Assembly: GCA_963695545.1 (NCBI GenBank)
Contig: OY968796.1
Location: 1,760,001 to 1,824,000 of the forward strand
Direction: 5' to 3'
DNA: 64,000 nucleotides
From: Terriglobia bacterium
Lineage (GTDB): Bacteria > Acidobacteriota > Terriglobia > Acidiferrales > UBA7541
In this document: piece by piece, positions 7,119-51,685 of the stretch
Numbering within the stretch: position 1 is the stretch's first letter
Layout: the number at the start of each line of letters is the position of its first letter
The notes under the pieces: model-generated
What the model saw: only the letters and a program-made list of their open reading frames with translations
Databases searched by the model: none
Told to the model about the DNA's origin: nothing
Program-made: the position numbers and the translations under genes

Positions 7119-8798
7119 ATGAGTGGTAAACCAATCGTACTGACTGCGTGCGATTCCGAATCCAACGAATATCTCCGAAGCACCTGGCGCCAAATGTTGC
7201 TGGCGACTTTGCCGGCGCGTTACGCGAAATATATCGGCACCAATTGGTCCGTAAAGAACGAAGTCGCGCCCGACGGCCGCGCTAAATACGTTCCGCACGG
7301 CCTGCGCGTCGTCGAATCGCTGCTGCTCAACGGCAACTTCACCGCCGACGATGTGGTCGTCTGCTACCCCGATCAGTTTGAGCAGTTCATCGGTGACGAT
7401 ACGCGCGTCGTCGGCGTGCACGCGCACAATCCGCTCGGCATCACCTTCGCCACCGACGTCTACGCCTATCTCTATGGCAGCACCATCGAGCCCATCAACG
7501 CCATGGAGTTCCGCCGCTTGATCGAGCATCCCGTGCTGCGCCGCCACAAGCCGCACCTAAAACTCATCGTCGGCGGCCCCGGCGCGTGGCAAATCGAAAA
7601 GAAAAATCTTCAGGACGCCTGGCAAGTCGATTGCCTCGTGCACGGCGAAGCCGAAGATCTGGTCGGCCCGCTGTTTGAATCCGCCTATCGCGGCGAGGAA
7701 ATTCCGCGCAGCCTCACCGGCAAAAGCCCGTCGCTCGATAAAATTCCGCGCATTCACCATCGCTCCACGTTCGGCGCCGTGGAAATCACGCGCGGCTGCG
7801 GACGCGGTTGCCAGTTCTGCAGCGTCGCGCTGCGCAAAGGCAAAAGCATTCCGCTCGCGCACATCCTGGACAACGTCCGCGTGCAAGTCGCCGAAGGCGC
7901 GGACACCATCCTGCTCACCACCGAGGATATTTTCCTCTACGAGCAGGGCCCGAAATTCAAAACCAACGTTCCCGCGCTCAAGCGCCTGCTCGATTCCGTC
8001 GCCGGCGTGCCCGGCGTGAAATACATCATGCTCACGCACGGCACTATCGCGCCCGCCGTCATCGAGCCTGAAGTGATCGCCGAACTTTCCGAAGTCGCCG
8101 TCGGCTACAGCGTGAATAAGCACGCCGATTCCACGCATCCGGATAAACGCTACGCCAATCTCTTCATCGGCCTTGAGACCGGCTCCACGCGCCTCTTCGA
8201 TCAGCACATGAAGGGCAAGGCCTATCCGTATCGCTCGCAGCAGTGGCCCGAAGTCGTGATGAAGGGCATGAACACGCTGAACAAGCACAATTGGTTCCCC
8301 TTCTGCACGTTCATTCTCGGCTTGCCCGGCGAGACGCGCCAGGACACGCGCGAATCGCTTGATCTGCTCTACGCGCTCAAAGGCTCAAAGTGGTGCGTGA
8401 TCCCCACGCTCTTCGTCCCGCTCGAGGAAACGCGCCTCGAGAAAAAAGCCGGCGCCAAGCTCGTCGAGCTCACCGACCTGCAGTGGGAATTTTTCTTCAC
8501 CTGCTGGCGCTACAATCTCGATTTCTATCATCGCGATCCGTCGCTGCGCTGGAAGTTCAGCCTCGGCATTCCGCTCTACTACTACATGCTCGGCCGCAAA
8601 CTTTTCGGCCGCGAAATGAAGTATCCGCTCTTGCGCCTGGGCCATTTCCCCGAATGGTTCCTGCGTCGCAAGCTCTATCTCGATTTCTCGAATGGCGACG
8701 AGGCCAAATATCACGTCCCCGAGCACGTCCCCGTGCCCGAGGATCGCATGCGCCCCGCCCTGCCTGACGTCGATGGCCACGGCCTGGTCGTTCTCTAG
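7119..8798 (+). CDS. B12-binding/radical SAM protein resembling the GDGT ring synthase (GrsA/B) family
   Basis: EITRGCGRGCQFC (CxxxCxxC), IVGGPGAWQ, GEAE, IGLETGS and FILGLPGET motifs; N-terminal DGR..P.GLR.VE and EPIN..FR segments recalled from the Grs family; GGAG RBS before ATG 7119. Confidence 0.85.
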   Translation: MSGKPIVLTACDSESNEYLRSTWRQMLLATLPARYAKYIGTNWSVKNEVAPDGRAKYVPHGLRVVESLLLNGNFTADDVVVCYPDQFEQFIGDDTRVVGVHAHNPLGITFATDVYAYLYGSTIEPINAMEFRRLIEHPVLRRHKPHLKLIVGGPGAWQIEKKNLQDAWQVDCLVHGEAEDLVGPLFESAYRGEEIPRSLTGKSPSLDKIPRIHHRSTFGAVEITRGCGRGCQFCSVALRKGKSIPLAHILDNVRVQVAEGADTILLTTEDIFLYEQGPKFKTNVPALKRLLDSVAGVPGVKYIMLTHGTIAPAVIEPEVIAELSEVAVGYSVNKHADSTHPDKRYANLFIGLETGSTRLFDQHMKGKAYPYRSQQWPEVVMKGMNTLNKHNWFPFCTFILGLPGETRQDTRESLDLLYALKGSKWCVIPTLFVPLEETRLEKKAGAKLVELTDLQWEFFFTCWRYNLDFYHRDPSLRWKFSLGIPLYYYMLGRKLFGREMKYPLLRLGHFPEWFLRRKLYLDFSNGDEAKYHVPEHVPVPEDRMRPALPDVDGHGLVVL

Positions 8799-8836
8799 GG
8801 ATTCGCGCCCGCATTTTTCCGTTGACGTTTGCAGTT

Positions 8837-8873
8837 GTAGGGACGGGGGTCGCCGCGGCGACCCTCCGCCCGC
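8837..8873 (+). repeat. GTAG-type REP-like palindrome
   Basis: gtag followed by an imperfect GC-rich hairpin containing gggtcgcc-gc-ggcgaccc. Confidence 0.55.
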
Positions 8874-9092
8874 CTTTTTTCCGCCCGCAAAAAATCCACA
8901 CTCCCCGGCAGATTTTTCCGTACCCGCCATCCCCTATATCGCCCCTATCTTCCTGTCCCATAGCTACTTAGCCCAATGGCGCTTTGGAACAACAAATGCC
9001 CCCTTACGTCCCGAAAGGCACAGCAATGGAATCCAATTAGTCGTAACAATGAACCACACAACTACGCGGCCGCTACGGCCCGGGAGGAAATT

Positions 9093-9392
9093 ATGAACAT
9101 CACCAAACTTTGCAGCCGAGTGATTCTCACGACTGCATTGGCCGGCGGTCTGGCATTAGCCGTAGGAGCGCCGATCAACGCGGAACCCGACTATAGCAAC
9201 GCCTGTCATCAGCGCCTCGAAAACGATCGCGCCCGCATCGACCACGAAGCCGCGCGCCACGGCGAACACAGTCCACAGGTTGCCCATGCCGTTGACCGCA
9301 TGGATCAGGATCGTCAATGGTGCCGCGACCATCACTCCGATTGGGATCACACCCGCTTTGACGTCGGCATCTATTTCCGTCCAGGCCACTAA
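9093..9392 (+). CDS. Small secreted His/Asp-rich hypothetical protein, paralog 1
   Basis: GGAGG RBS, ATG 9093, signal peptide ending INA; two Cys; aligns end to end with 9789-10082. Confidence 0.85.
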   Translation: MNITKLCSRVILTTALAGGLALAVGAPINAEPDYSNACHQRLENDRARIDHEAARHGEHSPQVAHAVDRMDQDRQWCRDHHSDWDHTRFDVGIYFRPGH

Positions 9393-9437
9393 TTGAATCC
9401 GCGGAGCACGGGCGCTGGTTTCAGCCCGTTGCGAGAA

Positions 9438-9476
9438 AGGAGGCTGGTCCTGTCGGATCAGCCTCCTCTGTTTTTT
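9438..9476 (+). terminator. Intrinsic terminator
   Basis: aggaggctg-gtcc-tgtc-ggat-cagcctcct stem followed by ctgtttttt. Confidence 0.75.
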
Positions 9477-9477
9477 C

Positions 9478-9650
9478 GTACCGCAGGCATCCTGCCTGCA
9501 TGCCTGTCGCATACGCCTTTCTGCGTCGCCTCGTTCCTTCACGCTGTCTTCCCGCCTGCCCGCCGCAGCCTTGGCGAAGGCGGGAACCCGGTCGCCCCGG
9601 GCGAACGACGGTGCCTGCCCGCCGTAGGAGGGAGTGATCTGCTTTCGCGG
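9478..9650. repeat. Cluster of REP-like palindromes
   Basis: gtaccgcaggcatcctgcctgc; cctgcccgccg occurs twice; ccgccgcagccttggcgaaggcgg hairpin. Confidence 0.55.
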
Positions 9651-9788
9651 TTCGCCGCAGTCCGCAAGGGAGGGTCTCCATTTCCGCATCGCGCTTCTCC
9701 GTAACTCTTCGCCTCGCGTCTGAATCAAATCAATCGTACGAAGCAGTCTTCCATTTTTGAGGCCGTTGTGCCCCAGGAGGATCTCACG

Positions 9789-10082
9789 ATGAAAAGCACC
9801 AAGCTTTTAAGCCGAATTCTCTTCACCACCGCGCTCGCCGGCGGATTGGCATTAGCTGTCGGAACTCCAATCAACGCGGAACCCGACTACAGTAACGCTT
9901 GTCATCAGCGTCTCCAGAACGACAAGGCCCGCATTGACCACGACGCCGCCCGCCACGGCAACGACAGTCCCCAGGTCCAGCACGACGTCGCCCGCATGGA
10001 CACCGACCGCCAATGGTGCCGCGATCACAAAGCCGATTGGGACCACAGCACCTTCGACATCGGCATCTACATACATAAATAG
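9789..10082 (+). CDS. Small secreted His/Asp-rich hypothetical protein, paralog 2
   Basis: AGGAGG RBS, ATG 9789; shares AEPDYSNACHQRL..D.ARIDH.AARHG..SPQV.H.V.RMD.DRQWCRDH..DWDH..FD.GIY with paralog 1. Confidence 0.85.
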   Translation: MKSTKLLSRILFTTALAGGLALAVGTPINAEPDYSNACHQRLQNDKARIDHDAARHGNDSPQVQHDVARMDTDRQWCRDHKADWDHSTFDIGIYIHK

Positions 10083-10131
10083 CCGCCGCAGCTACGCCCA
10101 GCGCAGTTCCGAGCACAGTCGAGGGGCCCAT

Positions 10132-10169
10132 AAGGAGGCTGATTCCCAAAAATCAGCCTCCTTCGCTTT
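10132..10169 (+). terminator. Terminator-like hairpin related to the 9438 hairpin
   Basis: Perfect 13-bp stem aaggaggctgatt/aatcagcctcctt. Confidence 0.7.
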
Positions 10170-10170
10170 G

Positions 10171-10360
10171 GTAGCACAGGCACTCCTGCCAGGGTGCCGC
10201 TCGCAGTAGCCTGTGTAACTTTCTGTGGGTGCCGCACCCTTTGTCTTTAAGGGTGCGGTTTTTGACTTTGCTTTTCCCGGACGCCCCCGCACTCGCTCCG
10301 AACGGGCGAACGTGGGCCGCTGATCTTTGCCTATGTAGTGCCAGCCGTTCAGGCTGGCAT
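10171..10360. repeat. Cluster of REP-like palindromes
   Basis: gtagcacaggcactcctgcc; ccgcaccctt..aagggtgcgg hairpin; gtagtgccagccgttcaggctggca (10335). Confidence 0.6.
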
Positions 10361-10377
10361 CTTGTTTTCAGCTTGGC

Positions 10378-10566
10378 TTATCTCGAATGCAAACGAATCA
10401 CCGAAGGCTTTTCCCCGCCATCGAAGTGGCAACTCACCGCGTCCCGCACCATCTTCCTCAATTCCTCAAGGCTCTCCGCCTGCGTGAAAATGGCACATCC
10501 CAGCGCGCGCGCCTCGTACCCGCCCTCCGGCGATTCCTCCACTGCGAAGATGATTTCTTTTTGCGT
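10378..10566 (-). pseudogene. Decayed HicB-like antitoxin gene
   Basis: Manual translation: TQKEIIFAVEESPEGGYEARALGCAIFTQAESLEELRKMVRDAVSCHFDGGEKPSVIRLHSR*. ACG stands where a start would be, with an in-frame TGA 4 codons upstream; no hicA partner is visible. Confidence 0.7.
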
Positions 10567-10768
10567 CGACCCGCATCAGCGTATCCGGGAACTCCCACGC
10601 CGGGACGTGCAACGGCCGGATTCCCATTTCGACGTTCCTCCGTGAAGTTCTCGACCCACTAAGTGGGCGCAGTTCCATCGGTCGCGTTTGGCCAGAGGAT
10701 TGCTAACGCAAGAGTTGATCAATCCGACTGTTTTGCGTTTAGAAGTATCGGAGTGATAAAGTCGCGGG

Positions 10769-11614
10769 GTGGCACGAAAACGCACTCAGCCCGCGTCCCA
10801 ACTGAGTCATGACGAAGAATACTTTGAGACATTGGCCGGAGCTCTCCGTGTATGCGCGAAATACAAACCGATGTTCGGCCAAGGAAGAGCCGGTGGCGGA
10901 ATGACGCTAGAGCAATTTCGTCAATTGTACGGGTCTGATCCGTTCTACAGCTGGATCGGCATGGATTCACCGATGATGTACGCCGCTCACAAGGCGGCGG
11001 GAGGTATGACCTCGATTTACAGGCAAGTCGGAATCGGAGCACAGTGGATTTTCAACAAGGTGTTGCAACACACGCTTGGACTGTCAGCAGAACAAGCAGC
11101 GTGGGTCTACGAAGTCCCAAAAACAGGCGTGGGAACCAGAAAGCTGTCACTTGACGGCAGGATTGAGGTCCGCGATATTGCGGACGTGAACGCAAAGCGA
11201 CGAGTCCAAAACTGGATCAACAGTGGACTGAAAAGGGTTCTCGTTGATCCAGCGGCCGCGAGCGCTCCCAAGATGGGCGCCGTGTTCGAAGTTCGTCAGG
11301 GATACAAGAGCAAGGACTCCAAACGTCAGAACGCCGACCTTGCCAACGCCGCCAGCGCCTACGTTGAAGGCTATATGCCGGTTGTCGTGTTACTCTCGAC
11401 CCAGATAGACGGGGACGTCGCAATGCGCTACACCGAGGCTCGTTGGCTGTTGTTGACGGGAACGAAAGCAGGAAGCACGGTCGAGAGCACATATGCCTTT
11501 TGCCGAGACGTTCTCGGCTACGATCTCGCGGCGTTCTTTGAGCGCAACTCCGCGCGCTTCAAAGGCGAGATTGAAAAGGTGCTGACAGCACTATTGAAAC
11601 CCGATGGCAAGTAG
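10769..11614 (+). CDS. Putative type II restriction endonuclease (PD-(D/E)xK-like)
   Basis: LDGR...FEVR acidic motif; overlaps the methyltransferase gene by 11 nt; visibly lower GC than the flanking genes. Confidence 0.7.
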   Translation: MARKRTQPASQLSHDEEYFETLAGALRVCAKYKPMFGQGRAGGGMTLEQFRQLYGSDPFYSWIGMDSPMMYAAHKAAGGMTSIYRQVGIGAQWIFNKVLQHTLGLSAEQAAWVYEVPKTGVGTRKLSLDGRIEVRDIADVNAKRRVQNWINSGLKRVLVDPAAASAPKMGAVFEVRQGYKSKDSKRQNADLANAASAYVEGYMPVVVLLSTQIDGDVAMRYTEARWLLLTGTKAGSTVESTYAFCRDVLGYDLAAFFERNSARFKGEIEKVLTALLKPDGK

Positions 11615-12854
11615 AGCCTCAACCGCAGTCCAACGTCTCGATCACCTCACTCACCGGGGCAACACGAAGTACACCCGATACGGATGGCTGCGACTGACGC
11701 CCGCGTTCTCTATACATCTAATCCTTGATCTCGTAAGGTCCCTGCCGACCGATGCTCGCGTCCTTGATCCGTTCTGCGGAACGGGCACAACCGCGCTTGT
11801 ATGCGCAGAGGAAGGCGTGGACTGTGACACGGCCGACATCAATCCGTTCTTGCTGTGGCTGGCCTCCGCAAAGACTGCCAACTACTCCAGACAGGAAATC
11901 GAGGCCGCCAAGAACGGCGCAGAACAGATCACGGTGGCGCTGCGAAACCGAAACGGGAAAACGGCCTCTTGGTACCCTCCACTGTTTAACATCGAAAAGT
12001 GGTGGGACGGCCCGATTCTGGAACGACTAGGCAAGATCAGGTCGATGATCGAAGATCAAGCAACGCAGCTAGGCCCGCAGGCCACGACACTGCTCAAAGT
12101 TTCCTTTTGCCGAGTGGTGATCGAGCTAGCGAATGTGAGTTTCGGGCATCAGTCGATGTCTTTTAAGAAGCCGCAAACCCAGATGGTGCTGCAAATTTTG
12201 ACCGACGCGACCGAAACAGTCGCGGATAAATGGCTCGAGACCACAAACAGCATACTTCAGGCCGCTCAGACACACATCCAGACCAAGCCGAACTGTTTGC
12301 CCTGTGACGCACGGAGCTTGACCGACACTTTTGCGCGAGCGAGCTTTGATTGTGTCATCACCTCACCGCCGTACCCAAACAGAATGAGCTATATACGCGA
12401 ACTTCGTCCCTATATGTACTGGCTCGGTTATCTGTACGATGCGCGCCAAGCCGGCGAACTCGACTGGAAAGCAATCGGAGGGACCTGGGGTTGCGCGACA
12501 AGCAACCTCAATGCGTGGCAAGCACCTGAATCAGGAATCCCGTTCTCAGAATTCGGGTCAATCCTGGCCCGAATTTCCAAGTCGAGCGGGCTGCTTTCCC
12601 GTTATGTCCACAAGTATTTCTGCGACATGGCGGTTCACGTTCGAGAATTGTTCGAGGTTGTGAAGCCCGGCGGAACTGTGCACTACATCGTGGGCAACTC
12701 GAAATTCTACGACGTCTTGTTGCCGGTGGAGCAGATATTCACATGCCTGTTCGAGCATGCCGGATTCGTGGATGCAAACTACACCGTTGTCCGAAAACGA
12801 ACGTCGAAGAAAGAATTGTTTGAATACGACGTCACCGCGACAAAACCGCTCTGA
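11604..12854 (+). CDS. Site-specific DNA amino-methyltransferase, probably N4-cytosine, alpha motif order
   Basis: Motif I VLDPFCGTGTT near the N-terminus; motif IV ITSPPY well downstream. Confidence 0.88.
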   Translation: MASRASTAVQRLDHLTHRGNTKYTRYGWLRLTPAFSIHLILDLVRSLPTDARVLDPFCGTGTTALVCAEEGVDCDTADINPFLLWLASAKTANYSRQEIEAAKNGAEQITVALRNRNGKTASWYPPLFNIEKWWDGPILERLGKIRSMIEDQATQLGPQATTLLKVSFCRVVIELANVSFGHQSMSFKKPQTQMVLQILTDATETVADKWLETTNSILQAAQTHIQTKPNCLPCDARSLTDTFARASFDCVITSPPYPNRMSYIRELRPYMYWLGYLYDARQAGELDWKAIGGTWGCATSNLNAWQAPESGIPFSEFGSILARISKSSGLLSRYVHKYFCDMAVHVRELFEVVKPGGTVHYIVGNSKFYDVLLPVEQIFTCLFEHAGFVDANYTVVRKRTSKKELFEYDVTATKPL

Positions 12855-12882
12855 CTGCGGGCGGGCCTTTTCCACCCCTCCT

Positions 12883-13181
12883 ATTCGAATAGCTCATTAA
12901 TTTACATTGACACACAAGTACAGTTCGTGCTAAGCTTCTGAATGTACGCCGAACACATCATCCGTTTTTTCGCCCCCAACCCTTCTAGAATCAATACTTC
13001 TGAAAAATCGCATTTTAAACCTTTTAGAATCACCAGTTCTGGCGCAAAGGACTTAAAGTCGTTCAGAATCAGCACTTCCAAAAAACACCCGGGGGGGAGG
13101 GGGGTACCCGCCCTCCATGTATCGGTTTTTTCGATCGTCGCCGCGGCGGTGGCTTTCGTAGCGGAGGCCTTCAGGCCTCCA
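12883..13181 (+). mobile_element. Dispersed promoter-bearing repeat element, copy A (putative non-autonomous element or ncRNA unit)
   Basis: TTGACA(12907)-N18-TAAGCT(12931), ATG 12942, three AGAATCA units at 39-bp period, aaaaacacccgggg, terminal 24-bp GTAG hairpin identical to 51191-51214. Confidence 0.55.
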
Positions 13182-13223
13182 TCCTCGTGGAGTATTATGG
13201 CGCCGGGTGAAACCACAACTCCA

Positions 13224-15065
13224 ATGACAAAACTTAGAATCGCGCTCCTACTCACGCTTCTCGCCGTCGCATCGACTGCTTGCGTTACCGCGCGCGCGCA
13301 AAGCACTACGGCGCCGGCCGCGACGGCCTCCGCGCCGCCGAACGTCACGCCCCCAACGCCGGTTCCGGGGCCGTATACGCTTGGTCCGGATTCGCAGCGC
13401 CAACCCAACGTGCCGCAGGGCGTGGTGACGAAATATACTTGGAGCACCAGCCAAATTTATCCCGGCACCACGCGCGACTACTGGATCTACGTTCCCGCGC
13501 AATACACAGCGACAAAGCCGGCTTGCCTGATGGTTTTTCAGGATGGCGGCGGAATGGTCGGCGAGACCGGCGGCTGGCGCGTGCCCATCGTTTTCGACAA
13601 TCTGATCGCCAAGGGCGATATGCCGGTGACCATCGGCGTGTTCATCAATCCCGGCGTGCTCACGGCGCTGTCGCCAGAAGTTCAGCAGAATCGTTTCAAT
13701 CGCAGTTACGAGTACGACGCGCTCGGCGACCGCTACGCACGTTTCCTGAGCGAGGAAATTCTGCCGGAACTCGCGAAGCTCTATAACATCTCGACGGATC
13801 CGAACGACCGCGCCATTGCCGGCTCAAGCTCCGGCGGAATCGCCGCGTTCAATGCCGCATGGAATCGACCCGATCAATTTCATCGCGTGATGAGCTTTAT
13901 CGGCAGCTTCACCAATCTGCGCGGCGGCGACGCGCTCGCCACGCTGATCCGCAAGACCGAGCCCAAGCCGCTGCGCGTTTTTCTGCAGGATGGCAGCGCT
14001 GACCAAAACATCTACGCCGGCAGTTGGTACCTCGGCAATCAGCAGATTTTCACCGCGCTGCAATACGCGGGTTATGAAAGCACGTTCGTCGTGGGCACGG
14101 GCGGCCATAGCGGCGCGCAAGGTGGCGCAATCCTGCCCGATGCGTTGCGCTGGTTGTGGAAGGATTATCCGAAGCCGATCGCCACTCCCGCGCCCGCCAT
14201 GGGCGCTGAGGCTCCTGCGGCTTTCATCGATCCCGCCAGTGGATGGCAACTCGTCGGCGATGGATACAAATTCACCGATGGCGCCGCGGTCGATAAGCTC
14301 GGCAACGTTTATTTCACGGATCGCCCCAACAATCATATTTACAAAATCGATCTCGACGGCAAAGTCAGCATGTGGCGCGAGGACGGCGAAGGCGCAACCG
14401 GCATGGTCTTCGGCCCCGATGGCCGCATGTATCTCTGCGAGCCGGCGCGCCATCGCATCGTCACCATCGCGCCCGATGGCACGGAAACCGTGCTCGCCGA
14501 AGAGATCGACGATCCGAACGATCTCGCCGTGCTCGCGAACAACACCGCCTATTTCACCGATTCCAATAAACACAACGTGTGGTTCATCGACGCCAAAGGA
14601 AACAAGCGCGTCGTCTACTCCGGCACGGACACCTCGGGAATCAATTTCCCGAATGGCGTGCGCACCTCGCCCGACGAGTCCCTGCTGATGGTTTCGGACA
14701 CGCGCAATAAATGGGTTTGGTCGTTCCAGATCGAGGCGGATGGCTCGCTCACGAATGCCGAACCGTTTTATCGCCTCGAAACGCCCGACGACGATTCGCA
14801 AAGCGATGGCGACGGCATGACCGTCGATACGCTGGGATTTCTCTACGTCACCACGAAGCTCGGCGTGCAGATTTGCGATCAGCCCGGCCGCGTCGAGTTG
14901 ATTCTGAACAAGCCGTCAGACGGCTGGCTTGCGAGTATCGCCTTCGGCGGCCCGGACATGCAGTGGCTCTACGTCACCAACAAGGACAAGGTTTATCGGC
15001 GGCACATGGTGCGCACCGGCATTCCGTCCTGGGCCGTGCTGAAGCCGCCGACGCCGCATTTGTGA
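13224..15065 (+). CDS. Secreted fusion: Fes-like alpha/beta esterase + SMP-30/gluconolactonase beta-propeller
   Basis: Signal peptide MTKLRIALLL; GSSSG nucleophile elbow; PND, FPNG and DGMTVD SMP-30 motifs; alternative start at 13197. Confidence 0.88.
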   Translation: MTKLRIALLLTLLAVASTACVTARAQSTTAPAATASAPPNVTPPTPVPGPYTLGPDSQRQPNVPQGVVTKYTWSTSQIYPGTTRDYWIYVPAQYTATKPACLMVFQDGGGMVGETGGWRVPIVFDNLIAKGDMPVTIGVFINPGVLTALSPEVQQNRFNRSYEYDALGDRYARFLSEEILPELAKLYNISTDPNDRAIAGSSSGGIAAFNAAWNRPDQFHRVMSFIGSFTNLRGGDALATLIRKTEPKPLRVFLQDGSADQNIYAGSWYLGNQQIFTALQYAGYESTFVVGTGGHSGAQGGAILPDALRWLWKDYPKPIATPAPAMGAEAPAAFIDPASGWQLVGDGYKFTDGAAVDKLGNVYFTDRPNNHIYKIDLDGKVSMWREDGEGATGMVFGPDGRMYLCEPARHRIVTIAPDGTETVLAEEIDDPNDLAVLANNTAYFTDSNKHNVWFIDAKGNKRVVYSGTDTSGINFPNGVRTSPDESLLMVSDTRNKWVWSFQIEADGSLTNAEPFYRLETPDDDSQSDGDGMTVDTLGFLYVTTKLGVQICDQPGRVELILNKPSDGWLASIAFGGPDMQWLYVTNKDKVYRRHMVRTGIPSWAVLKPPTPHL

Positions 15066-15077
15066 GTGCCAAAATTC

Positions 15078-16667
15078 TTAGGCTGCGGGTTTTGCGACGA
15101 TCGCCGGCGACTCAAGCGGCTCGCGTTTTCGCGCCGCGAGCCACGTCCACAGCGTGAGCCCGCTGCGCGCTTCGGCCCGCGCCGGAGCGATGATCGCCGT
15201 CGCGTAGCCCACGGCGAGCAGCACGACGTTGCCCACGACGCCGATCATGTATTCGTGCCACGTGAAGCGCGGCAGATGCAGTCGCGCCGCGACGCTCGCG
15301 CTCTCCGTCAGCGTCGCCCAGAGCGTGAAGACCAGGTTCGCGGCGATTCCGAGTTGTGCCGCGCGCGCCGTCGCTCTCGTGCTGAGGAACGCCAGCAGGA
15401 ACAGGCCCGCAAGCCCTCCTGCGACGACGGACATCACGCCGTAGTAGAGCGTGAGCGCCGTGCCGTGGCTGTGGATCAGCGTCCACGCCACCGCCAGCGC
15501 GGCGGCGCCCACGCCGAGCACCGCGACGCGCCCGACGCGCAGTTGGGCCGGGTCGCCGCTCGCCGGCCGCAGGAGGCGGTACCCGTCTTCGACGATGATC
15601 ATGGAAAGACAATTTAAATCCGACGCCAGCATGGCCATCGCCGCGCCGAACAGCGCCGCGAGAAAAAGTCCGGCAACGCCCGGAGGCAAATGCGTCGAGA
15701 AGAAGTACGGGAAAATCTGGTCGCCCTTCGTCACGTACGCGGGCAAGTGCTCGCCGGTGATCTGGAAGTACGACCACAGCAACGATCCGATCAGCATGAA
15801 CAGCGCCCACACTGGAATGCACAGCGCCGCGCCGAGCAGAATGCCGCGCAGCGCGGCGCGATCGGTCTTGGCGGAAAGATAGCGCTGCACCACCGATTGA
15901 TCGGCGGTGTATTTCTGGAGGTAGTACGACGTGCCGTAGAGCAGCAGCACCAGCATCGTCGGTGAGCGCAACGAGAGCGACGCGCTGCCAAGGCTTATCT
16001 TGTGCGCGTCCCACGCGACGCTGAGCGCGTGCGCTGGCCCGCCCGGCGGCAGAAAAAGTAGGTAGCCGACAGCAACCAGCCCGCCGCACGCCAGCAGAAT
16101 GGCTTGCAGCACGTCGGCCCAGATTACGGCTTCAAGCCCGCCGACCAAGGCGTACAACACGGCGACCACGCCGGCCAGCAGCAGAAGCGATTCGACGCGC
16201 CAACCCGTGATGCTGTTCACGGTGAGCGCGAGCAGATAAAAAACGAATCCCATCTTGGCGAGATGTCCGACGCCGAACATCAGCGCCGCGTAAACGCGCA
16301 CCGGTTTGCCGAAGCGGCTTCCGAAATACTCGAACGCGCTCATCCTCACCGCGTGGCGATAAAACGGCACGATCACAAATCCCGCGAGCAACGGGATAAG
16401 GAGAATCATCGCGCCCGGCATCATCAGCGACCAATCGCCTGCGAATGCCGATCCCGGATACGAGACGAACGTGAGGCTGGTGATAATCGTGGCGAGCAGC
16501 GAAATGCCCATCGCCCATCCGGGAATCGAGCGCCGCGCGACGAAGTAACTCTCCGTCGTGGTTTGCCGCCGCGAGAAGTACAGACCGAGCGCGAGCAACA
16601 CGACGAGGTACAAACCGATCACGGCGGGATTAATCCACGCCGCGCTGATCGACGCGGCGCTGCTCAT
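15078..16667 (-). CDS. Sodium:solute symporter (SSS family)
   Basis: YFVARRSIPGWAMGISLLAT, GGLEAVIWAD, DQSVVQRYL, many TM helices; ATGA overlap with the pdxA2 stop. Confidence 0.92.
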   Translation of the reverse strand: MSSAASISAAWINPAVIGLYLVVLLALGLYFSRRQTTTESYFVARRSIPGWAMGISLLATIITSLTFVSYPGSAFAGDWSLMMPGAMILLIPLLAGFVIVPFYRHAVRMSAFEYFGSRFGKPVRVYAALMFGVGHLAKMGFVFYLLALTVNSITGWRVESLLLLAGVVAVLYALVGGLEAVIWADVLQAILLACGGLVAVGYLLFLPPGGPAHALSVAWDAHKISLGSASLSLRSPTMLVLLLYGTSYYLQKYTADQSVVQRYLSAKTDRAALRGILLGAALCIPVWALFMLIGSLLWSYFQITGEHLPAYVTKGDQIFPYFFSTHLPPGVAGLFLAALFGAAMAMLASDLNCLSMIIVEDGYRLLRPASGDPAQLRVGRVAVLGVGAAALAVAWTLIHSHGTALTLYYGVMSVVAGGLAGLFLLAFLSTRATARAAQLGIAANLVFTLWATLTESASVAARLHLPRFTWHEYMIGVVGNVVLLAVGYATAIIAPARAEARSGLTLWTWLAARKREPLESPAIVAKPAA

Positions 16668-17770
16668 GTGATGGATGGCGTGGAACCGCTTGCGGATTGC
16701 GCCGAGCTGCTGGGAGATTGTGCCGATCCGCTGGGAGACTGTGGCGAGCCGCCGGGAGACGTCGGTGGCGTAATGGGAGATGGCGGCGGCGTGGCGCATC
16801 GCGTGCGCGCGCGGTTCTCCGCCATTTTCGCGGCCATGCGCATGGCGGCTTTCATGTTGCGCGCGTCGGCTTTGTTTTGTCCGGCGATGTCGAAGGCCGT
16901 GCCGTGATCGACGGAAGTTCGGATGATGGGGATGCCGACGGAAATATTCACGGTCTCTTCAAAATCGATCAGCTTCATCGGAATGTGTCCTTGATCGTGA
17001 TACATCGCGACGACCAGATCGTAGGCGCCGCGCGAAGCTTGCAGAAAAATCGTGTCGGGCGCGGCGGGACCGTCGCAGGGAATTCCAGACTCGCGCGCCT
17101 GGTGAATCGCGGGCGCAATGATTTGTTCATCTTCGGTGCCGAAAAGGCCGTGTTCGCCGGCGTGAGGATTAAGTCCGCACACAGCGATGCGGGGTTGCGC
17201 GAATCCGAGCAAACGCATGGCTTCGTGACCCGCTTTGATCGTGCGCACGATGCGCGGCGTATCCAGCTGAATGGCTTTGCGCAGCGGAACGTGCGTCGAG
17301 ACGTGCACGACGGCGAGACGCTGGTTGGCGAGAAGCATCCAGGACTCCGTGCAGCGGCACAGTTCGGCGATGTATTCGGTGTGCCCGGAAAATGATCGGC
17401 CGGAGAGTGTGACCGCTTCTTTGTTCAGCGGCGCAGTGACCATGGCATCCGCTTCTCCCGCGAGGCACATCTCGGTGGCCTTGCGCACATAGCGGACGGC
17501 CGCCGCGGCGCAGGCGGCGCTGAGGTGTCCGAAGCGCAGGCCCGATTTTTCGTGCAGCTCTTTGAGATCCAAGATGCGCGCGTGCAATTCTTGCGGTTTG
17601 ATTCCGCAGGTTTGACCGGTGCGATCAAGCACCCAGGCGTCGCCGACGACAATCCAGTTTGCGAGCGACGCGATTTCAGGATCGGCGAGCGCTTTGAGAG
17701 TGATTTCGGCGCCGACGCCGGCCGGATCGCCGATGGTGACAGCGATCGATTGTTTTTTCTCTTCCGTCAT
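16664..17770 (-). CDS. pdxA: PdxA-family dehydrogenase, likely PdxA2 (D-threonate/D-erythronate 4-phosphate dehydrogenase)
   Basis: TIGDPAGVG, TAPLNKE, GHTE, GLNPHAGE, MYHDQG, RTSVDHGTAFDIAG; adjacent DUF1537 kinase. Confidence 0.92.
   Translation of the reverse strand: MTEEKKQSIAVTIGDPAGVGAEITLKALADPEIASLANWIVVGDAWVLDRTGQTCGIKPQELHARILDLKELHEKSGLRFGHLSAACAAAAVRYVRKATEMCLAGEADAMVTAPLNKEAVTLSGRSFSGHTEYIAELCRCTESWMLLANQRLAVVHVSTHVPLRKAIQLDTPRIVRTIKAGHEAMRLLGFAQPRIAVCGLNPHAGEHGLFGTEDEQIIAPAIHQARESGIPCDGPAAPDTIFLQASRGAYDLVVAMYHDQGHIPMKLIDFEETVNISVGIPIIRTSVDHGTAFDIAGQNKADARNMKAAMRMAAKMAENRARTRCATPPPSPITPPTSPGGSPQSPSGSAQSPSSSAQSASGSTPSIT
16691..16795. repeat. Degenerate 21-bp tandem repeat in the pdxA2 3' end
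   Basis: gggaga recurs at 16712, 16733, 16754 and 16775. Confidence 0.8.
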
Positions 17771-17782
17771 GCTTCGCTCCCG

Positions 17783-19045
17783 CTACGCTGCGTCCGGCGC
17801 GATGGCACAGAGAATTTTCGCCGCATTCACCAGAGCCATTTCATCGCCGAAGCCGCCCGCTTTTGTGGCTACCGCCAATCGGTCGAGCAATCCGCCGCGA
17901 AGAATGCCGCGCGGAATGCCGGGCGACACTTCATCCTGAAGCTGGATCGCTGTGGCGCCGATCGCGTCGCACACAAGTTCGGCCGTGCTGCCACCGCTGA
18001 GGAAAGCCGCGGAGATTCCGCTGCGGTGCGCTTCGGCAATCAGCAGACGGATTCGCGCACGGTCGGCCGCCGACGCGTCGTAGAGCAGCAGCAACGCGTG
18101 GCGCATCTGCTGGATGATCTTCCTCACATCGCTGGGCGTAGCCGTCTTCGCATCGAGTGCGCTGGCCTGTCCGCTTTCTTCAAGGCGTTTCACTTGAAGC
18201 AGTGTGACGGGATGATCCGAGCCCACGCAAAAGAGGACGGGCGCTCGATGACCATCGGAGTTTCGCGCAGCGGGAGTTCCGATCTTTCCGGGACTCGTGA
18301 CGTGAGGCGAACCGCTGGAGTCGCGAGCAATGGCAAGAATTTGCGCCGCGTATTTCGCGAGACCGGCGGAGCCGACCCAAAGCGGCCGCGTCGGCAATTC
18401 ATGCAGGGCTTGCGCGATGCGCTCAAGATCCTGCTCGGTTTCGGAATCGCAAATAATGAATTCCGTGCCGGTCGCACGAAGCTGAAGTATGTCCTGTGCG
18501 ATTTTCCCTGGGCGTGCCGCGACGCCGGCAGAAAGCAGCGCGATTTTATCGAGACCTTGCTGCGAGAGCAGCTCGCGCACATCGATGGCTAAGGAGCCGG
18601 TGCAATCGCGAATGTGAAGCACGCCGCGAGCGACGCTGCGGCCTTGTGCAGGAAGTGCCGGCGCGAGCACGGCAAAGTCAAGGGCGGCGGCGCGCATCAT
18701 TGCTCGCGATTCGGAAACGATGTTGCCGCGCAGCGTGGAATCAATTTTCTTGAAGAGTATCGCGTTCGCTGCCGGCGCCATGGGCCGCGTGAGACGCTCG
18801 ACTTCTTCGGCAGCGGCTTCAGGCGATTGGTGGCGCGAGCGCGAGTTGGCGATGCGGATTTCGGCTTCGAGAGGCGGGTCGCTCGAGGCGAGTTCAACGA
18901 TGCTGTTGAGGCCGCGGAGCGCGAACTGCACGCCCGTGTCGCACGCGCCGGTGAGATCGTCGGCAATTACAACGGCGGCGGACGCTTGGCGCGCGGGAAG
19001 CGTTTCGAGTTCGTCGGTTGTTTTCATTTGGGGCGCGCGCATCAT
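17783..19045 (-). CDS. Four-carbon acid sugar kinase (DUF1537; DtnK/DenK family)
   Basis: IADDLTGACD, FKKIDSTLRGN, VGSAGLA, GGSTA, TKAGGFG; start could be 19027. Confidence 0.92.
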   Translation of the reverse strand: MMRAPQMKTTDELETLPARQASAAVVIADDLTGACDTGVQFALRGLNSIVELASSDPPLEAEIRIANSRSRHQSPEAAAEEVERLTRPMAPAANAILFKKIDSTLRGNIVSESRAMMRAAALDFAVLAPALPAQGRSVARGVLHIRDCTGSLAIDVRELLSQQGLDKIALLSAGVAARPGKIAQDILQLRATGTEFIICDSETEQDLERIAQALHELPTRPLWVGSAGLAKYAAQILAIARDSSGSPHVTSPGKIGTPAARNSDGHRAPVLFCVGSDHPVTLLQVKRLEESGQASALDAKTATPSDVRKIIQQMRHALLLLYDASAADRARIRLLIAEAHRSGISAAFLSGGSTAELVCDAIGATAIQLQDEVSPGIPRGILRGGLLDRLAVATKAGGFGDEMALVNAAKILCAIAPDAA

Positions 19046-19114
19046 CGAAATTCCCACGGCGTATCTTTTCCGACTGCGACGCCGAAACTCAAGACGCAAC
19101 CGGCGACGCGCTGG

Positions 19115-20887
19115 TCACGCGGACGGCAACAAACCAGTGACGCGACCGAGCTGCGTTGCGTGCGCGATCAGGTTGCCGTCGGCGAATACGGAAAGACCCT
19201 GGCCCTTGCCGAATTTCTTGCCGGTCTCGTCCCACACGATGGTCAGCAAACGGCCGTGATACGGAACGCGATCGAGACAAAACCAATCCCAAGTGTTTGC
19301 GGGCAAGAGCGGATGAACCTCCACCGTCGCATCCGCGCGTGGGCGCAATCCCACGAGATCAGTAATCACGAGATCGGCGTAGGCGGAATGATTGTAGTGG
19401 TCGCCGCGGCCGTAAAAAACGCCCTCTTTTATTTTGCGCTCACGAGCGAGCCAATTGCCGGTGAAGGGATCGAGATTTTCGTCAATCCAGGGAATCACGC
19501 GGCCGTCGTCAAGGCGCAAGCGATGGCTGCGCGTGTAGATCAGAAAGGTTCTGAAATAATCTTGCGGCGAAATCGCCGGATGGAGATTGCTAGCCGGTGC
19601 GGTGTTCAGGAAGTTGCCGAGCGCCTTTAGCGTGATGGTTGTCGAGAACGGCCAGCTCGGACCATTCCACTGGCAATCGTCGCCATCAAACGCGATACGA
19701 AATCCCGGATTGCGCTGCTCGGCAGTTGTCGGGCCGTACGGCGCAAAGAAGGCTTGCGCGTCCATCAATGATTTCCACGCGGCTTCGTATCCGAAGCCCG
19801 CGGGAGGGAGACCGAAGAGCCAGGGCGAGAAACCGATTTCTTCGCGGACGTTCGCGAGTTTTCCGGATTCGAGGAGCGCCTCGAAGAATCGGTCGCGAGA
19901 GCTCCACAGATGTTCGCACACGAGTTGGCGCAAGCGCACCGCCTTGGCTTCGTACTGGTGCGCAACGTCGGGCTTTTCGGCAAGCGAGGCGATCGCGGCG
20001 ATGGCTTTGGCATTGCCGAACATGTAGCTATTGATCGAAGGGCGCGCGTTGTGAATCTTGCGGCCGCCGCTGATGGATTCTTCCATTCCATCGGCGACAT
20101 CGAATTGCCAGAACAGACCGCTCGGAAGCAATCGCTCCTGTTCCCAAGTTTTGTAATCGAGAATTAGCGCGTCGAGTTGCGAAAGCAAGAAATTCCGGTC
20201 GCCATTCACAAGCCAGCGATCGTAGACGGCGGCAGAGGTCCAGCCGCTGAATTGATGCAGCTTTGGGTGGATTCCGCCATTCGGGCCGCCGCGCAGCCAG
20301 AAATTGATGTGCTGGTCGATGTACTGCGAATCGTGCAGCCAGCGTCCTTCCGCGACATGATGGCCGAAGGCGCAGCTCAGCGCGTTGTATTCACCGGCGT
20401 GCTTCACGGGTTTCAGAAACTCAGTGATGATGAAGCCGACGGGAGTTTTTTCGATATGTTTCCGGTAGGCCCACCAACGATAGTAATAAGTTTGCTCGAC
20501 ATCGCCGTCCGGACACGCGAAGAATGGAATATTGGATTGCATCCAGTCCCAGGCAGCCGCATCCGGGATATACGTGACGACATTTTCCGGCAACATGGCG
20601 TTGAAAAACTCGACGTAGTAACGGAAGTCCGCGGGATCGAGAACGTACTGGGATTGAGGTTCGGCGGTTTGGCCGGCGGAGATTTCGCGCGCACCGGAGG
20701 AATGATCGCTCGAAATTCCGGGCACGAACGCCGAATGTACGCCACTGAAATTTGAGGCGCTAGCGTTTCGCGCGCCGAGGATAGCGGTGGCGCCGGCCGC
20801 GCCCAGCCACGCCAACACGGCTCTGCGAGAAGGGGCTCGCGTGGTCAATTTGGTCGATTCGTCGCTAAGCGCGTGGTGCGAATTCAT
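19115..20887 (-). CDS. Tat-exported (alpha/alpha)6 glycoside hydrolase (MGH1-like; resembles GH63/GH121/GH142 types)
   Basis: SRRAVL twin-arginine signal; YYYRWW, HHVAEGRWL, DGMEESISG, RPSINSY, WNGPSWP, HYNHS. Confidence 0.8.
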   Translation of the reverse strand: MNSHHALSDESTKLTTRAPSRRAVLAWLGAAGATAILGARNASASNFSGVHSAFVPGISSDHSSGAREISAGQTAEPQSQYVLDPADFRYYVEFFNAMLPENVVTYIPDAAAWDWMQSNIPFFACPDGDVEQTYYYRWWAYRKHIEKTPVGFIITEFLKPVKHAGEYNALSCAFGHHVAEGRWLHDSQYIDQHINFWLRGGPNGGIHPKLHQFSGWTSAAVYDRWLVNGDRNFLLSQLDALILDYKTWEQERLLPSGLFWQFDVADGMEESISGGRKIHNARPSINSYMFGNAKAIAAIASLAEKPDVAHQYEAKAVRLRQLVCEHLWSSRDRFFEALLESGKLANVREEIGFSPWLFGLPPAGFGYEAAWKSLMDAQAFFAPYGPTTAEQRNPGFRIAFDGDDCQWNGPSWPFSTTITLKALGNFLNTAPASNLHPAISPQDYFRTFLIYTRSHRLRLDDGRVIPWIDENLDPFTGNWLARERKIKEGVFYGRGDHYNHSAYADLVITDLVGLRPRADATVEVHPLLPANTWDWFCLDRVPYHGRLLTIVWDETGKKFGKGQGLSVFADGNLIAHATQLGRVTGLLPSA

Positions 20888-47648: not shown

Positions 47649-47819
47649 CGCCCGATGCTGCCCTTGTCCTTTCGCAGCGCGAAATAAATGTGCGTTCTCG
47701 CCGGCGAGCGCGCGCTCCGCGCTCGCGGCGAGTCGGCCTCCCCCAAATTTAATCTGTGGATTCTCCTGCTGAGGAGAGTTGCGAGCCTACGCAGAGAAAT
47801 CCTCCAAAAGAGAACCCGC

Positions 47820-47868
47820 GTAGGAGTCATCTGCCCTTTCGGGCGATTTAGGGTGAACCCCAACACCC
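47820..47868 (-). ncRNA. Fluoride riboswitch (crcB motif)
   Basis: Minus strand reads GGGUG-U-UGGGGU-U-CACCC-UAAAUC-GCCC-GAAA-GGGC-A-GAUG-ACUCC-UAC; P1, P2 and the pseudoknot all pair; lies upstream of crcB. Confidence 0.93.
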
Positions 47869-47890
47869 AAAAATTTTTTGCAACATGAAC

Positions 47891-50697: not shown

Positions 50698-50835
50698 GGC
50701 CGTTTGCCGCTCCTTTTCCACACGAATTCCAGCAATTATGGAGCGCCGGCCGTTTTCCGTCGACCCTTAAGATGCGCCGCGACCAGGACTTATTTTTCGA
50801 CACCGGCGAGTCCGGGCAGTGCCCTGTGGAAATTA

Positions 50836-51214
50836 ATTCGAATACTAATATACTAATTGACATATGCGTTCACAAATGCTATGCTTCTTCATGTTCGCCG
50901 GCATCCAATTCGAATTGCCCACCACCCCCGCTTTCCCCCGCCGGATCCCTGCGTCCACTCCCCCCGCTTTTGTCGGCCCGACGTGCAATCTGTGCATCCA
51001 TTTCGCCCCAGCAACTCCTTTACTTTCAGCCTCATACGCACTCCTCCAAAAGAGTGCGCATCTCATTGAAAACAATCATCATCAAGTCCCTTTGCGCTCA
51101 CACTCATCCGCACTCTTTCGCTGTACGTCCTTTAGTTTGAGCACTTTGACAAAAACATACCGGGGTGTATATAGGGCCCTTCGCTCTTTTGTAGCGGAGG
51201 CCTTCAGGCCTCCA
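50836..51214 (+). mobile_element. Dispersed promoter-bearing repeat element, copy B
   Basis: TTGACA(50857)-N17-TATGCT(50880), ATG 50891, degenerate tcc(c)ttt..cact units, aaaaacataccgggg, terminal 24-bp hairpin identical to 13158-13181. Confidence 0.55.
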
Positions 51215-51337: not shown

Positions 51338-51685
51338 TTATTCTTCCGCGGGAGGACGATAGAAGAACAACGCCAGCAGACACCCGCCCGCCACCGCCAT
51401 CAACAAGAAAAACACGGTCGCCAGCACGACGCCCACGATCGTGCCGGAAATCCCGCGCGCGCCCGACAAGTGGCCCAGCAAAAGACCGCACCCGAAACCA
51501 AGTATGGCGATCCCGCCGAAGCCTGGAAGGTGGAATTTCCCGCGAGACGCCGCCCAGGGGATATACGCCAGGAGAAACACGCACACCACGGCCAGCGGCA
51601 GCACTACAGGCATCCTCACTCGACGGATCACCAGAGCAGCCAACGCGGGCAGTTGCCGGAGCGCGATCTCGGCGTCAAAGGGCAT
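51338..51685 (-). CDS. Small hypothetical membrane protein (about 3 TM helices)
   Basis: Three hydrophobic segments; start uncertain. Confidence 0.55.
   Translation of the reverse strand: MPFDAEIALRQLPALAALVIRRVRMPVVLPLAVVCVFLLAYIPWAASRGKFHLPGFGGIAILGFGCGLLLGHLSGARGISGTIVGVVLATVFFLLMAVAGGCLLALFFYRPPAEE

What the first reader, a model, noticed from the sequence alone, without database searches (positions are those of the whole stretch)
12883..13181. Dispersed promoter + leaderless ATG + periodic repeats + GTAG-REP element, present twice
Seen in sequence: 12883-13181 and 50836-51214 share the same ordered parts. Both begin with attcgaata, an AT-rich stretch and TTGACA, then 17-18 nt later a 24-mer matching at 20/24 (tgctaagcttctgaatgtacgccg vs tgctatgcttcttcatgttcgccg). 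That 24-mer holds an extended -10 box and an ATG exactly 5 nt downstream, which is leaderless geometry. Next come atcc..tttcgcccc..aac.cctt, internal repeats, aaaaaca..ccgggg and an identical 24-bp hairpin gtagcggaggccttcaggcctcca. The flanking genes are unrelated. Established: GTAG-capped palindromes are the REP class processed by RAYT/TnpA-REP HUH nucleases. Inference: a non-autonomous mobile unit carrying its own promoter, or a multicopy sRNA/peptide locus. I do not recognise it as a described family.
Basis: partly seen in the sequence, partly recalled or inferred. Interest (0 to 1): 0.85.

Follow-up and report, generated by a model that had tools for sequence, protein, structure and literature searches.

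The report
Evenly spaced packaging-site-like mobile elements
This soil bacterium's chromosome carries about 100 evenly spaced copies of a small promoter-plus-repeat element that differs in position between related species, and a few copies add a zinc-finger gene that likely lets the element steer a phage-derived DNA-packaging machine to itself.

Summary
Unit: TTCGAA site(s), sigma70 promoter, ATG/GTG exactly 5 nt after the -10 box (95 of 99), C-rich linker, 3-5 ~22-bp boxes, G-run. The reading frame stays stop-free through the element (87 of 92; 18 of 18 in a sister species) with no sign of peptide selection. The GTAG hairpin is a separate RAYT-REP family beside only 3 elements, a chance level. 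Copies are old (63-86% identical), come and go at orthologous sites, are strongly over-dispersed (CV 0.57 vs 0.95, median 35 kb), and have foreign DNA upstream. All 4 copies of an unnamed CCCH-zinc-finger gene (X) sit directly behind an element. Three X proteins share a C-terminal motif with just one other ORF, a 92-aa gene in a family-conserved GTA-like terminase/portal/capsid cluster. Best reading (0.38): one-gene packaging parasites, X being a likely TerS-like adaptor and the boxes pac-like sites. Against it: X and this terL do not co-occur beyond chance, and the predicted tail-TerL complex is only weak. No description found in 7 literature searches.

The parts
12883..12891 (+). Copy A: ATTCGAATA palindromic site upstream of -35 (likely protein-binding)
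   Evidence: TTCGAA peaks at -55 to -65 in 84 of 92 elements
12907..12936 (+). Copy A: sigma70-type promoter, TTGACA, 18-nt spacer, extended -10 TGCTAAGCT
12942..13109 (+). Copy A: leaderless ATG and stop-free leader frame through the boxes; here it runs on in frame into the downstream SGL/esterase gene (ORF 12942-15065)
12978..13077 (+). Copy A: three ~22-bp boxes at a 39-bp period (A-type core), the last preceded by an inverted half-box
13091..13109 (+). Copy A: terminal G-run with GGGTACCC palindrome, the conserved 3' end
13158..13181 (+). GTAG REP, separate RAYT-associated family, adjacent by chance
50790..50798 (+). Left copy of a 9-bp near-direct repeat (1 mismatch) at the edge of the segment missing in G003; possible target duplication, single case
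50836..50914 (+). Copy B: TTCGAA site, TTGACA, 17-nt spacer, extended -10, ATG at 50891, second TTCGAA at 50909
50891..51174 (+). Copy B: stop-free leader frame over C-rich linker and B-type core
50999..51174 (+). Copy B: B-type core, boxes in direct and head-to-head orientation (CGCACTC/GAGTGCG 51037-51058), terminal G-run 51162-51174
51191..51214 (+). GTAG REP, separate family
51338..51346 (+). Right copy of the 9-bp near-direct repeat

Best explanation
The two loci are gene-less members of a ~100-copy mobile element family whose complete form carries one small zinc-finger gene (X), and X likely acts as a small-terminase-like adaptor that binds the 22-bp boxes and would recruit a phage-type large terminase, so that packaging of host DNA would start at the element. 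SHOWN: copy number, anatomy, open leader frame without peptide constraint, gain/loss at orthologous sites, even spacing, foreign DNA upstream, X behind the boxes, tail motif shared with a gene of the GTA-like cluster. INFERRED: (i) the promoter is active and the leader is translated, which would shield the C-rich, rut-like linker from Rho and hand ribosomes to X; (ii) X binds the boxes; (iii) the X tail docks on TerL; (iv) element plus flanking DNA travel in GTA or phage capsids and recombine into recipients, so passengers accumulate on one side and a second element within one headful gains little, giving the ~35-kb spacing.
For: X linkage: 4 of 4 X genes in the genome follow an element on the same strand. 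The leader stop lies at -13, -2, +4 and -122 nt from the X start. Of 35 X loci examined (34 from other genomes), 15 have box plus G-run upstream and 6 have boxes just downstream by a strict regex (sequences in 67, 75). Packaging link: the genome holds a terL/portal-like/major-head/endolysin cluster with host-like codon scores and REPs in its spacers; this terL is in 19 of 36 family genomes and the cluster is syntenic where fetched. A tail HMM from X hits, among 47,100 six-frame ORFs, only the 3 X proteins and the cluster's 92-aa gene (E 8.9e-6; next 0.55). The motif is in 93 of 120 homologs of that X subfamily and in the G003 copy of the 92-aa gene. The 92-aa protein's Atlas neighbours include tailed-phage clusters at 0.95, nearest named family DUF5681 at 0.92 (that DUF5681 proteins resemble TerS is recalled, not shown). 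Predicted X-tail/TerL complex: score 0.51, best of 3 controls 0.00, weak support: the mark was reached by 116 of 157 solved and 2 of 215 mismatched pairs, but at 0.60 or under by only 18 solved and both mismatches; run agreement at least 48%, partner pLDDT at least 47. Spacing CV 0.57 against a null mean of 0.95 (lowest of 5000 permutations 0.68), median 35 kb; three REP/TIR control families give 0.92-1.0. Host-like coding fraction 0.31 upstream vs 0.74 downstream in the first 500-nt bins.
Against: X and this terL do not co-occur beyond chance in the family: both 7, X only 12, terL only 12, neither 5 of 36 (tallied; about 10 expected for both); G018 (100% complete, 11 X matches) has no hit to this terL. 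The 92-aa gene was found in only 2 of 61 genomes, and its identity as TerS is not shown. One of 4 own X and the subfamily lack the tail motif (0 of 145 stored proteins). The X model (pLDDT 80.8) has no Foldseek match at E<=0.001 in BFVD or PDB. No X or box match was found in viral, phage or plasmid collections. Spacing does not obviously depend on neighbour orientation, whereas directional packaging predicts that it should. G001 has 8 promoter matches and no X hit (83% complete).
Confidence: 0.38

Rival explanations
1. Non-autonomous transposon-like element: the box array is an end bound by X or by an unidentified transposase/recombinase, and even spacing reflects target immunity as in Mu or Tn7 (recalled).
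For: Arrays of ~22-bp boxes in direct and inverted orientation. Orientation-independent over-dispersion. Sharp 3' end 10-20 nt after the G-run in most pairs. Empty sites, one with a 9-bp near-direct repeat. Insertions that include 1.3-2 kb of extra DNA.
Against: No terminal inverted repeats seen. No general duplication signal (shared k-mer 6.6 vs 6.5 control, though the windows may miss true ends). No conserved enzyme beside the element in 97 loci or after X. X shows no catalytic family. Copies 63-86% identical keep intact promoters, unlike decaying MITEs.
Confidence: 0.25
2. Host-domesticated sites: portable, X-regulated promoter-leader modules, or chromosome-organising or R-loop priming sites, kept at regular intervals by host selection.
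For: Near-invariant -35/-10/RTG in diverged copies. Downstream gene co-oriented in 70 of 92, and 38:10 in tandem gaps. Linker 40% C. Replication skew is weak and patchy. Some sites are shared across species.
Against: 22 of 92 point into a convergent gene. Downstream genes are unrelated. Copy number varies from 0 to 58 pattern matches within the family. 3 of 5 shared sites hold different core types. Does not explain the tail shared with the cluster gene.
Confidence: 0.2
3. Multicopy small RNA (protein sponge) or leaderless peptide family.
For: Strong promoter consensus and start codon; A core in one frame in 16 of 16; 14 of 70 possible synonymous vs 32 of 240 non-synonymous variants seen, a slight bias.
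Against: B core read in two frames (36 and 26 of 63), avoiding only the stop-containing one, with switches inside the core. No conserved stop. Variation by codon position 49/65/67. Weak, strand-symmetric folding. Boxes occur in both orientations.
Confidence: 0.1
4. RAYT/REP-driven unit: HUH transposases move the element through the GTAG hairpin.
For: All 6 Y1-transposase matches (4 loci) lie 0.35-4.6 kb upstream of an element; RAYT-like DNA is upstream of 3 of 19 elements in relatives.
Against: REP next to only 3 of 92 elements, chance level. The RAYT genes have their own flanking REPs or TIRs. Upstream tracts collect other repeats and foreign genes as well.
Confidence: 0.07

Closest known systems
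Phage satellites (PICI/SaPI TerS, Rpp) and lateral transduction
   Same: A small element-encoded protein would redirect a helper's terminase to the element's own site and move adjacent host DNA (recalled; PMC8575950 and PMC12829572 seen as search listings only).
   Different: No integrase, primase or att site in the unit; one gene or none; about 100 copies per chromosome; the likely helper is a resident GTA-like cluster; binding not shown.
Gene transfer agents (RcGTA, CcGTA)
   Same: Conserved, host-like structural cluster in the genome.
   Different: GTAs are described as lacking preference for their own genes (start of the abstract of PMC11841831); here dedicated start sites are proposed. 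Particle production untested.
P22 pseudo-pac sites
   Same: Dispersed chromosomal packaging starts (start of the abstract of PMC11226127).
   Different: Those resemble a phage pac site; these are 250-700 bp elements with their own promoter and partner gene.
GTAG REPs, REPtrons, TIRtrons (Di Nocera 2013, PMC3733652; passages read)
   Same: The 24-bp hairpin is a GTAG REP with a flanked RAYT in this genome.
   Different: The promoter/box element is neither a REP nor a TIR repeat; the passages read mention only TIR families of Koribacter.
MITEs and Tn7/Mu-type ends
   Same: Non-coding multicopy intergenic element; arrays of ~22-bp sites; mutual spacing (recalled).
   Different: No TIRs, no general target duplication, open-frame constraint, no cognate transposase found.

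Membership tests
GTAG REP/REPtron (hairpin only) | GTAG-tagged palindrome, multicopy, RAYT gene flanked by it | tested here: met
   54 copies; RAYT at G000:1387423-1387929 has the full REP on one side and the palindrome body on the other
GTAG REP/REPIN (whole element) | REP is an integral part of the unit | tested here: not met
   3 of 92 elements, about 4 expected by chance
MITE | terminal inverted repeats | tested here: not met
   none seen in the flanks
MITE | target-site duplication | tested here: inconclusive
   no bulk signal; one 9-bp near-repeat at copy B; none evident at the other printed empty sites
PICI/phage satellite | integrase, replication module, att sites | tested here: not met
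   no conserved neighbour gene other than X
PICI/phage satellite | own TerS/Rpp-like protein that engages helper TerL | tested here: inconclusive
   shared tail, weak complex score, no fold or family match
PICI/phage satellite | preferential packaging from the element's site | not testable with these tools
   needs particle DNA sequencing
Gene transfer agent (helper cluster) | conserved structural cluster without its own replication or integration genes | tested here: met
   none of the genome's 5 tyrosine-recombinase hits lies within 50 kb
Gene transfer agent (helper cluster) | particles that carry and transfer host DNA | not testable with these tools
   uncultured organism
Rfam ncRNA | match at gathering score | tested here: not met
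   (only a fluoride riboswitch elsewhere in the window)
Protein-coding small-ORF family | one conserved frame, stop and codon-type variation | tested here: not met
Retroelement | reverse transcriptase available; promoter inside the transcript | tested here: not met
   no RVT_1 match in a 93.8% complete genome; promoter lies upstream of the predicted start

The most novel reading that the evidence does not exclude
Acidoferrales chromosomes are tiled, about one per capsid-load, with selfish pac-like elements; a one-gene version supplies a zinc-finger TerS mimic that hijacks the host's domesticated gene transfer agent, making it a site-directed gene-drive and hitch-hiking system: the smallest packaging parasite, and a parasite of a GTA rather than of a phage.
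Probability: 0.3. Interest if true: 0.95.

Novelty: categorically new. Interest (0 to 1): 0.83.

Why it matters
Even without the mechanism, this is a ~100-copy element in an abundant soil lineage that combines properties not expected together: an open frame with no peptide constraint, intact promoters in old copies, regular ~35-kb spacing, one-sided build-up of foreign DNA, and a dedicated unnamed protein family. Its leader frames also account for a class of spurious 'hypothetical proteins'. If the packaging reading holds, it bears on the open question of how GTAs are kept and whether selfish DNA can bias them, and it predicts a directly measurable pattern: coverage steps at about 100 mapped sites in particle DNA.

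Tried and rejected
Expression: no RNA holder listed, which is no evidence either way. Contigs laid on window 8000-20000 showed no joint skipping the element; they break at the repeat. Phylum-wide box pattern: 0 of 300 other genomes, but it finds only 2 copies in the own genome, so it is uninformative about range. Viral, phage and plasmid searches were blank. Pfam and PHROG gave X only sub-threshold zinc-finger hits (zf-primase, best E 1.6e-4); the Atlas DUF5763 hit at 0.82 is a lead only. A second model of X was of low confidence (pLDDT 67) and was not searched. No profile search of the 1.84-billion protein library and no VIA wide fold search was obtained, so distant relatives of X remain open. 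Replication-origin idea: the third-position skew is weak and patchy, with no test tied to the elements; dnaA and an RNase H are present. Likeness of parts to CIRCE, dif, oriIS, DnaA boxes and integrase arm sites was considered from memory and not tested. Gene context rests on my own dicodon gene finder, which under-calls atypical genes; 'non-native' means scoring below 25 there. The DUF5681 paper (PMC8954984, 2 passages) only lists such a protein in a phage particle proteome and does not call it TerS. Literature: 7 searches listed no description of this element; only listings were seen except for the passages named; no supplements were read, and the supplementary repeat tables of PMC3733652 and of the MITE survey PMC11602168 could list it.

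Full report
OBSERVATION. BLAST of the two copies against the whole 4.16-Mb genome gave 104 clusters. Profile searches gave 99 promoter modules, 95 of them with a core within 1.5 kb, and 106 loci after merging halves split by insertions. The seed promoter regex had 66 hits against 0 in the reversed genome.

ANATOMY. 5' to 3': one or more TTCGAA sites (a peak at -55 to -65 in 84 of 92 elements; a second site upstream, or at about +15 in 32); TTGACA, 17-18 nt, TGnTAnnnT; ATG (62) or GTG (33) exactly 5 nt later in 95 of 99 (the regex did not ask for this codon, but the profile window covered it); a variable linker with 40% C; a core of ~22-bp boxes, A-type (18 of 92, 39-bp period) or B-type (74 of 92, one box inverted); and a G-run often followed by a short palindrome. 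Relatives show the same plan with 2-5 boxes. Best full-length pair identities are 62.6-86.3% for the 56 of 92 copies with such a partner, yet the -35, -10 and TG positions are 86-100% conserved while spacer positions are not.

THE FRAME IS OPEN BUT THE PEPTIDE IS FREE. From +6 to the element end the start-codon frame has no stop in 87 of 92 copies (6 stops in all), against 13 and 7 copies (162 and 252 stops) in the other frames; past the end the effect largely fades (51, 36, 41 of 92 open over 150 nt). This replicates in G003 (18 of 21 with RTG; 18, 0, 0 open) and in the named collection (34 of 97 loci matched the promoter regex, 23 with RTG, 22 open). Some G001 copies stop early. The A anchor is in one frame in 16 of 16; the B anchor is in two frames (36, 26) and once in the third, which carries a stop. 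Variation by codon position in the A core is 49/65/67. Inference: ribosome passage, not a product, is selected.

THE HAIRPIN IS A BYSTANDER. 54 copies, 3 beside an element, about 4 expected. Its RAYT gene is at G000:1387423-1387929, a REPtron in the sense of PMC3733652 (passages read).

MOBILITY AND PLACEMENT. None of 92 overlaps a predicted gene; the downstream gene is co-oriented in 70. Host-like genes lie a median 157 nt downstream but 677 nt upstream, and the upstream tracts hold REPs, TIRtrons and atypical genes; all 6 Y1-transposase matches lie upstream of an element. In 739 kb of G003 (about a fifth of it, contigs chosen because they held hits), 13 anchored intervals contain an element: 5 in both genomes (3 with different core types), 4 only in G000, 4 only in G003, one of which has a weak-core G000 copy and is really shared. 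At copy B, G003 has 31 nt where G000 has 575, edged by a 9-bp near-direct repeat. Spacing is regular: CV 0.57, median 35 kb, 6 gaps under 10 kb against 21.6 expected; none of 5000 permutations over 638 intergenic gaps came as low; control repeats give CV 0.92-1.0.

RANGE. The exact promoter pattern occurs in 9 of 36 other genomes of the family and 0 of 24 outside it. An A-type end pattern gave 97 stretches in the species collection; 77 of the 80 titles listed are Acidobacteriota, mostly Ca. Acidiferrum/Acidoferrales/gp2. The host is therefore inferred to be an Acidoferrales member. Nothing was found in viral, phage or plasmid sets.

PARTNER GENE X. Clustering ORFs around the 97 loci gave one recurrent unnamed family, in 6 loci. 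All 4 copies in G000 follow an element, each behind a ribosome-binding-like GGAG, with the leader stop at -13, -2, +4 and -122 nt from the X start. X has C-x8-9-C-x9-11-C-x2-H followed by a helical region, at least 500 homologs, all unnamed or hypothetical among those listed, and matches in 19 of 36 family and 9 of 15 sister-family genomes, up to 11 per genome, 0 of 8 outside the order. Of 35 X loci, 15 have box plus G-run upstream and 6 have boxes downstream by a strict regex; host genes follow directly. The family thus reads as promoter-leader-boxes-G-run-X or promoter-X-boxes-G-run, with about 100 X-less derivatives here.

LINK TO PACKAGING. G000:3384434-3413276 is a cluster with terL (PHROG E 4.6e-41), a 698-aa portal-position protein (no PHROG hit), major head protein (E 1e-6) and endolysin; terL is found in 19 of 36 family genomes and the cluster is syntenic in the 10 fetched. 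A 92-aa gene in it ends in the motif carried by 3 of 4 X proteins; it is the only non-X hit of a tail HMM under E 0.5 among 47,100 ORFs, and it resembles tailed-phage proteins in the Atlas. The X tail against TerL scored 0.51 with best control 0.00, a weak pass (116 of 157 solved and 2 of 215 mismatched pairs pass; at 0.60 or under, 18 solved and both mismatches; agreement at least 48%, partner pLDDT at least 47). Against: X and this terL co-occur in only 7 of 36; the 92-aa gene is in 2 of 61 genomes; many X lack the tail; no fold match; spacing looks independent of orientation. Other phages could serve as helpers, but none was found.

VERDICT. A real, apparently undescribed family of translated-leader, box-array elements with a one-gene partner. 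Packaging parasite 0.38; transposon-like end with immunity 0.25; host-domesticated site 0.20; RNA or peptide 0.10; RAYT unit 0.07.

Noticed in passing
L001:1629-2672, L002:448-1431, L003:2045-3007 (G000 247 kb, 344 kb, 3688 kb): 3 of the genome's 5 IS1595 transposons, each with passenger genes (proteasome-fold, DUF3800), are inserted inside A-type cores with 7-8 bp duplications; G008 (L023) has a similar IS end at the same core position.
   Followed up: partly
L159, L160 (G000:3384434-3413276): Family-conserved GTA-like structural cluster studded with GTAG REPs, with an IS inserted between the portal-position and capsid genes; no description found.
   Followed up: partly
window 47814-47876 (-): Fluoride riboswitch RF01734, 39.7 bits.
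   Followed up: no
window 10769-12854 (+): Atypical two-gene block directly upstream of copy A: 281-aa ORF without Pfam hit and an N6/N4 DNA methylase, likely a restriction-modification pair.
   Followed up: no
window 8976-9392 and 9768-10082 (+): Tandem near-duplicate small secreted-looking genes, each followed by a similar terminator (sequence).
   Followed up: no
L004, L005 (G000:1475749-1476279, 1478773-1479300, 1198899-1199456): Three similar RAYT-like genes (83-94% identical); the two inspected have long terminal inverted repeats (TIRtron type), and about 40 TIR copies are scattered in the genome.
   Followed up: partly
L007 (G000:1424680-1425370): A second REPtron flanked by a different GTAG REP, 12 copies in the genome.
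   Followed up: no
L160:636-1430: A GTAG REP lies inside the coding frame of a conserved 264-aa zinc-ribbon gene of the cluster.
   Followed up: no
G000 whole genome: GC skew is very weak and does not line up with dnaA at 1.364 Mb.
   Followed up: partly
L147, L150-L153, L157: In the sister family, X is preceded by a different repeat (AAAAACCGCA-type) plus a G-run, suggesting that boxes and X diverge together.
   Followed up: no
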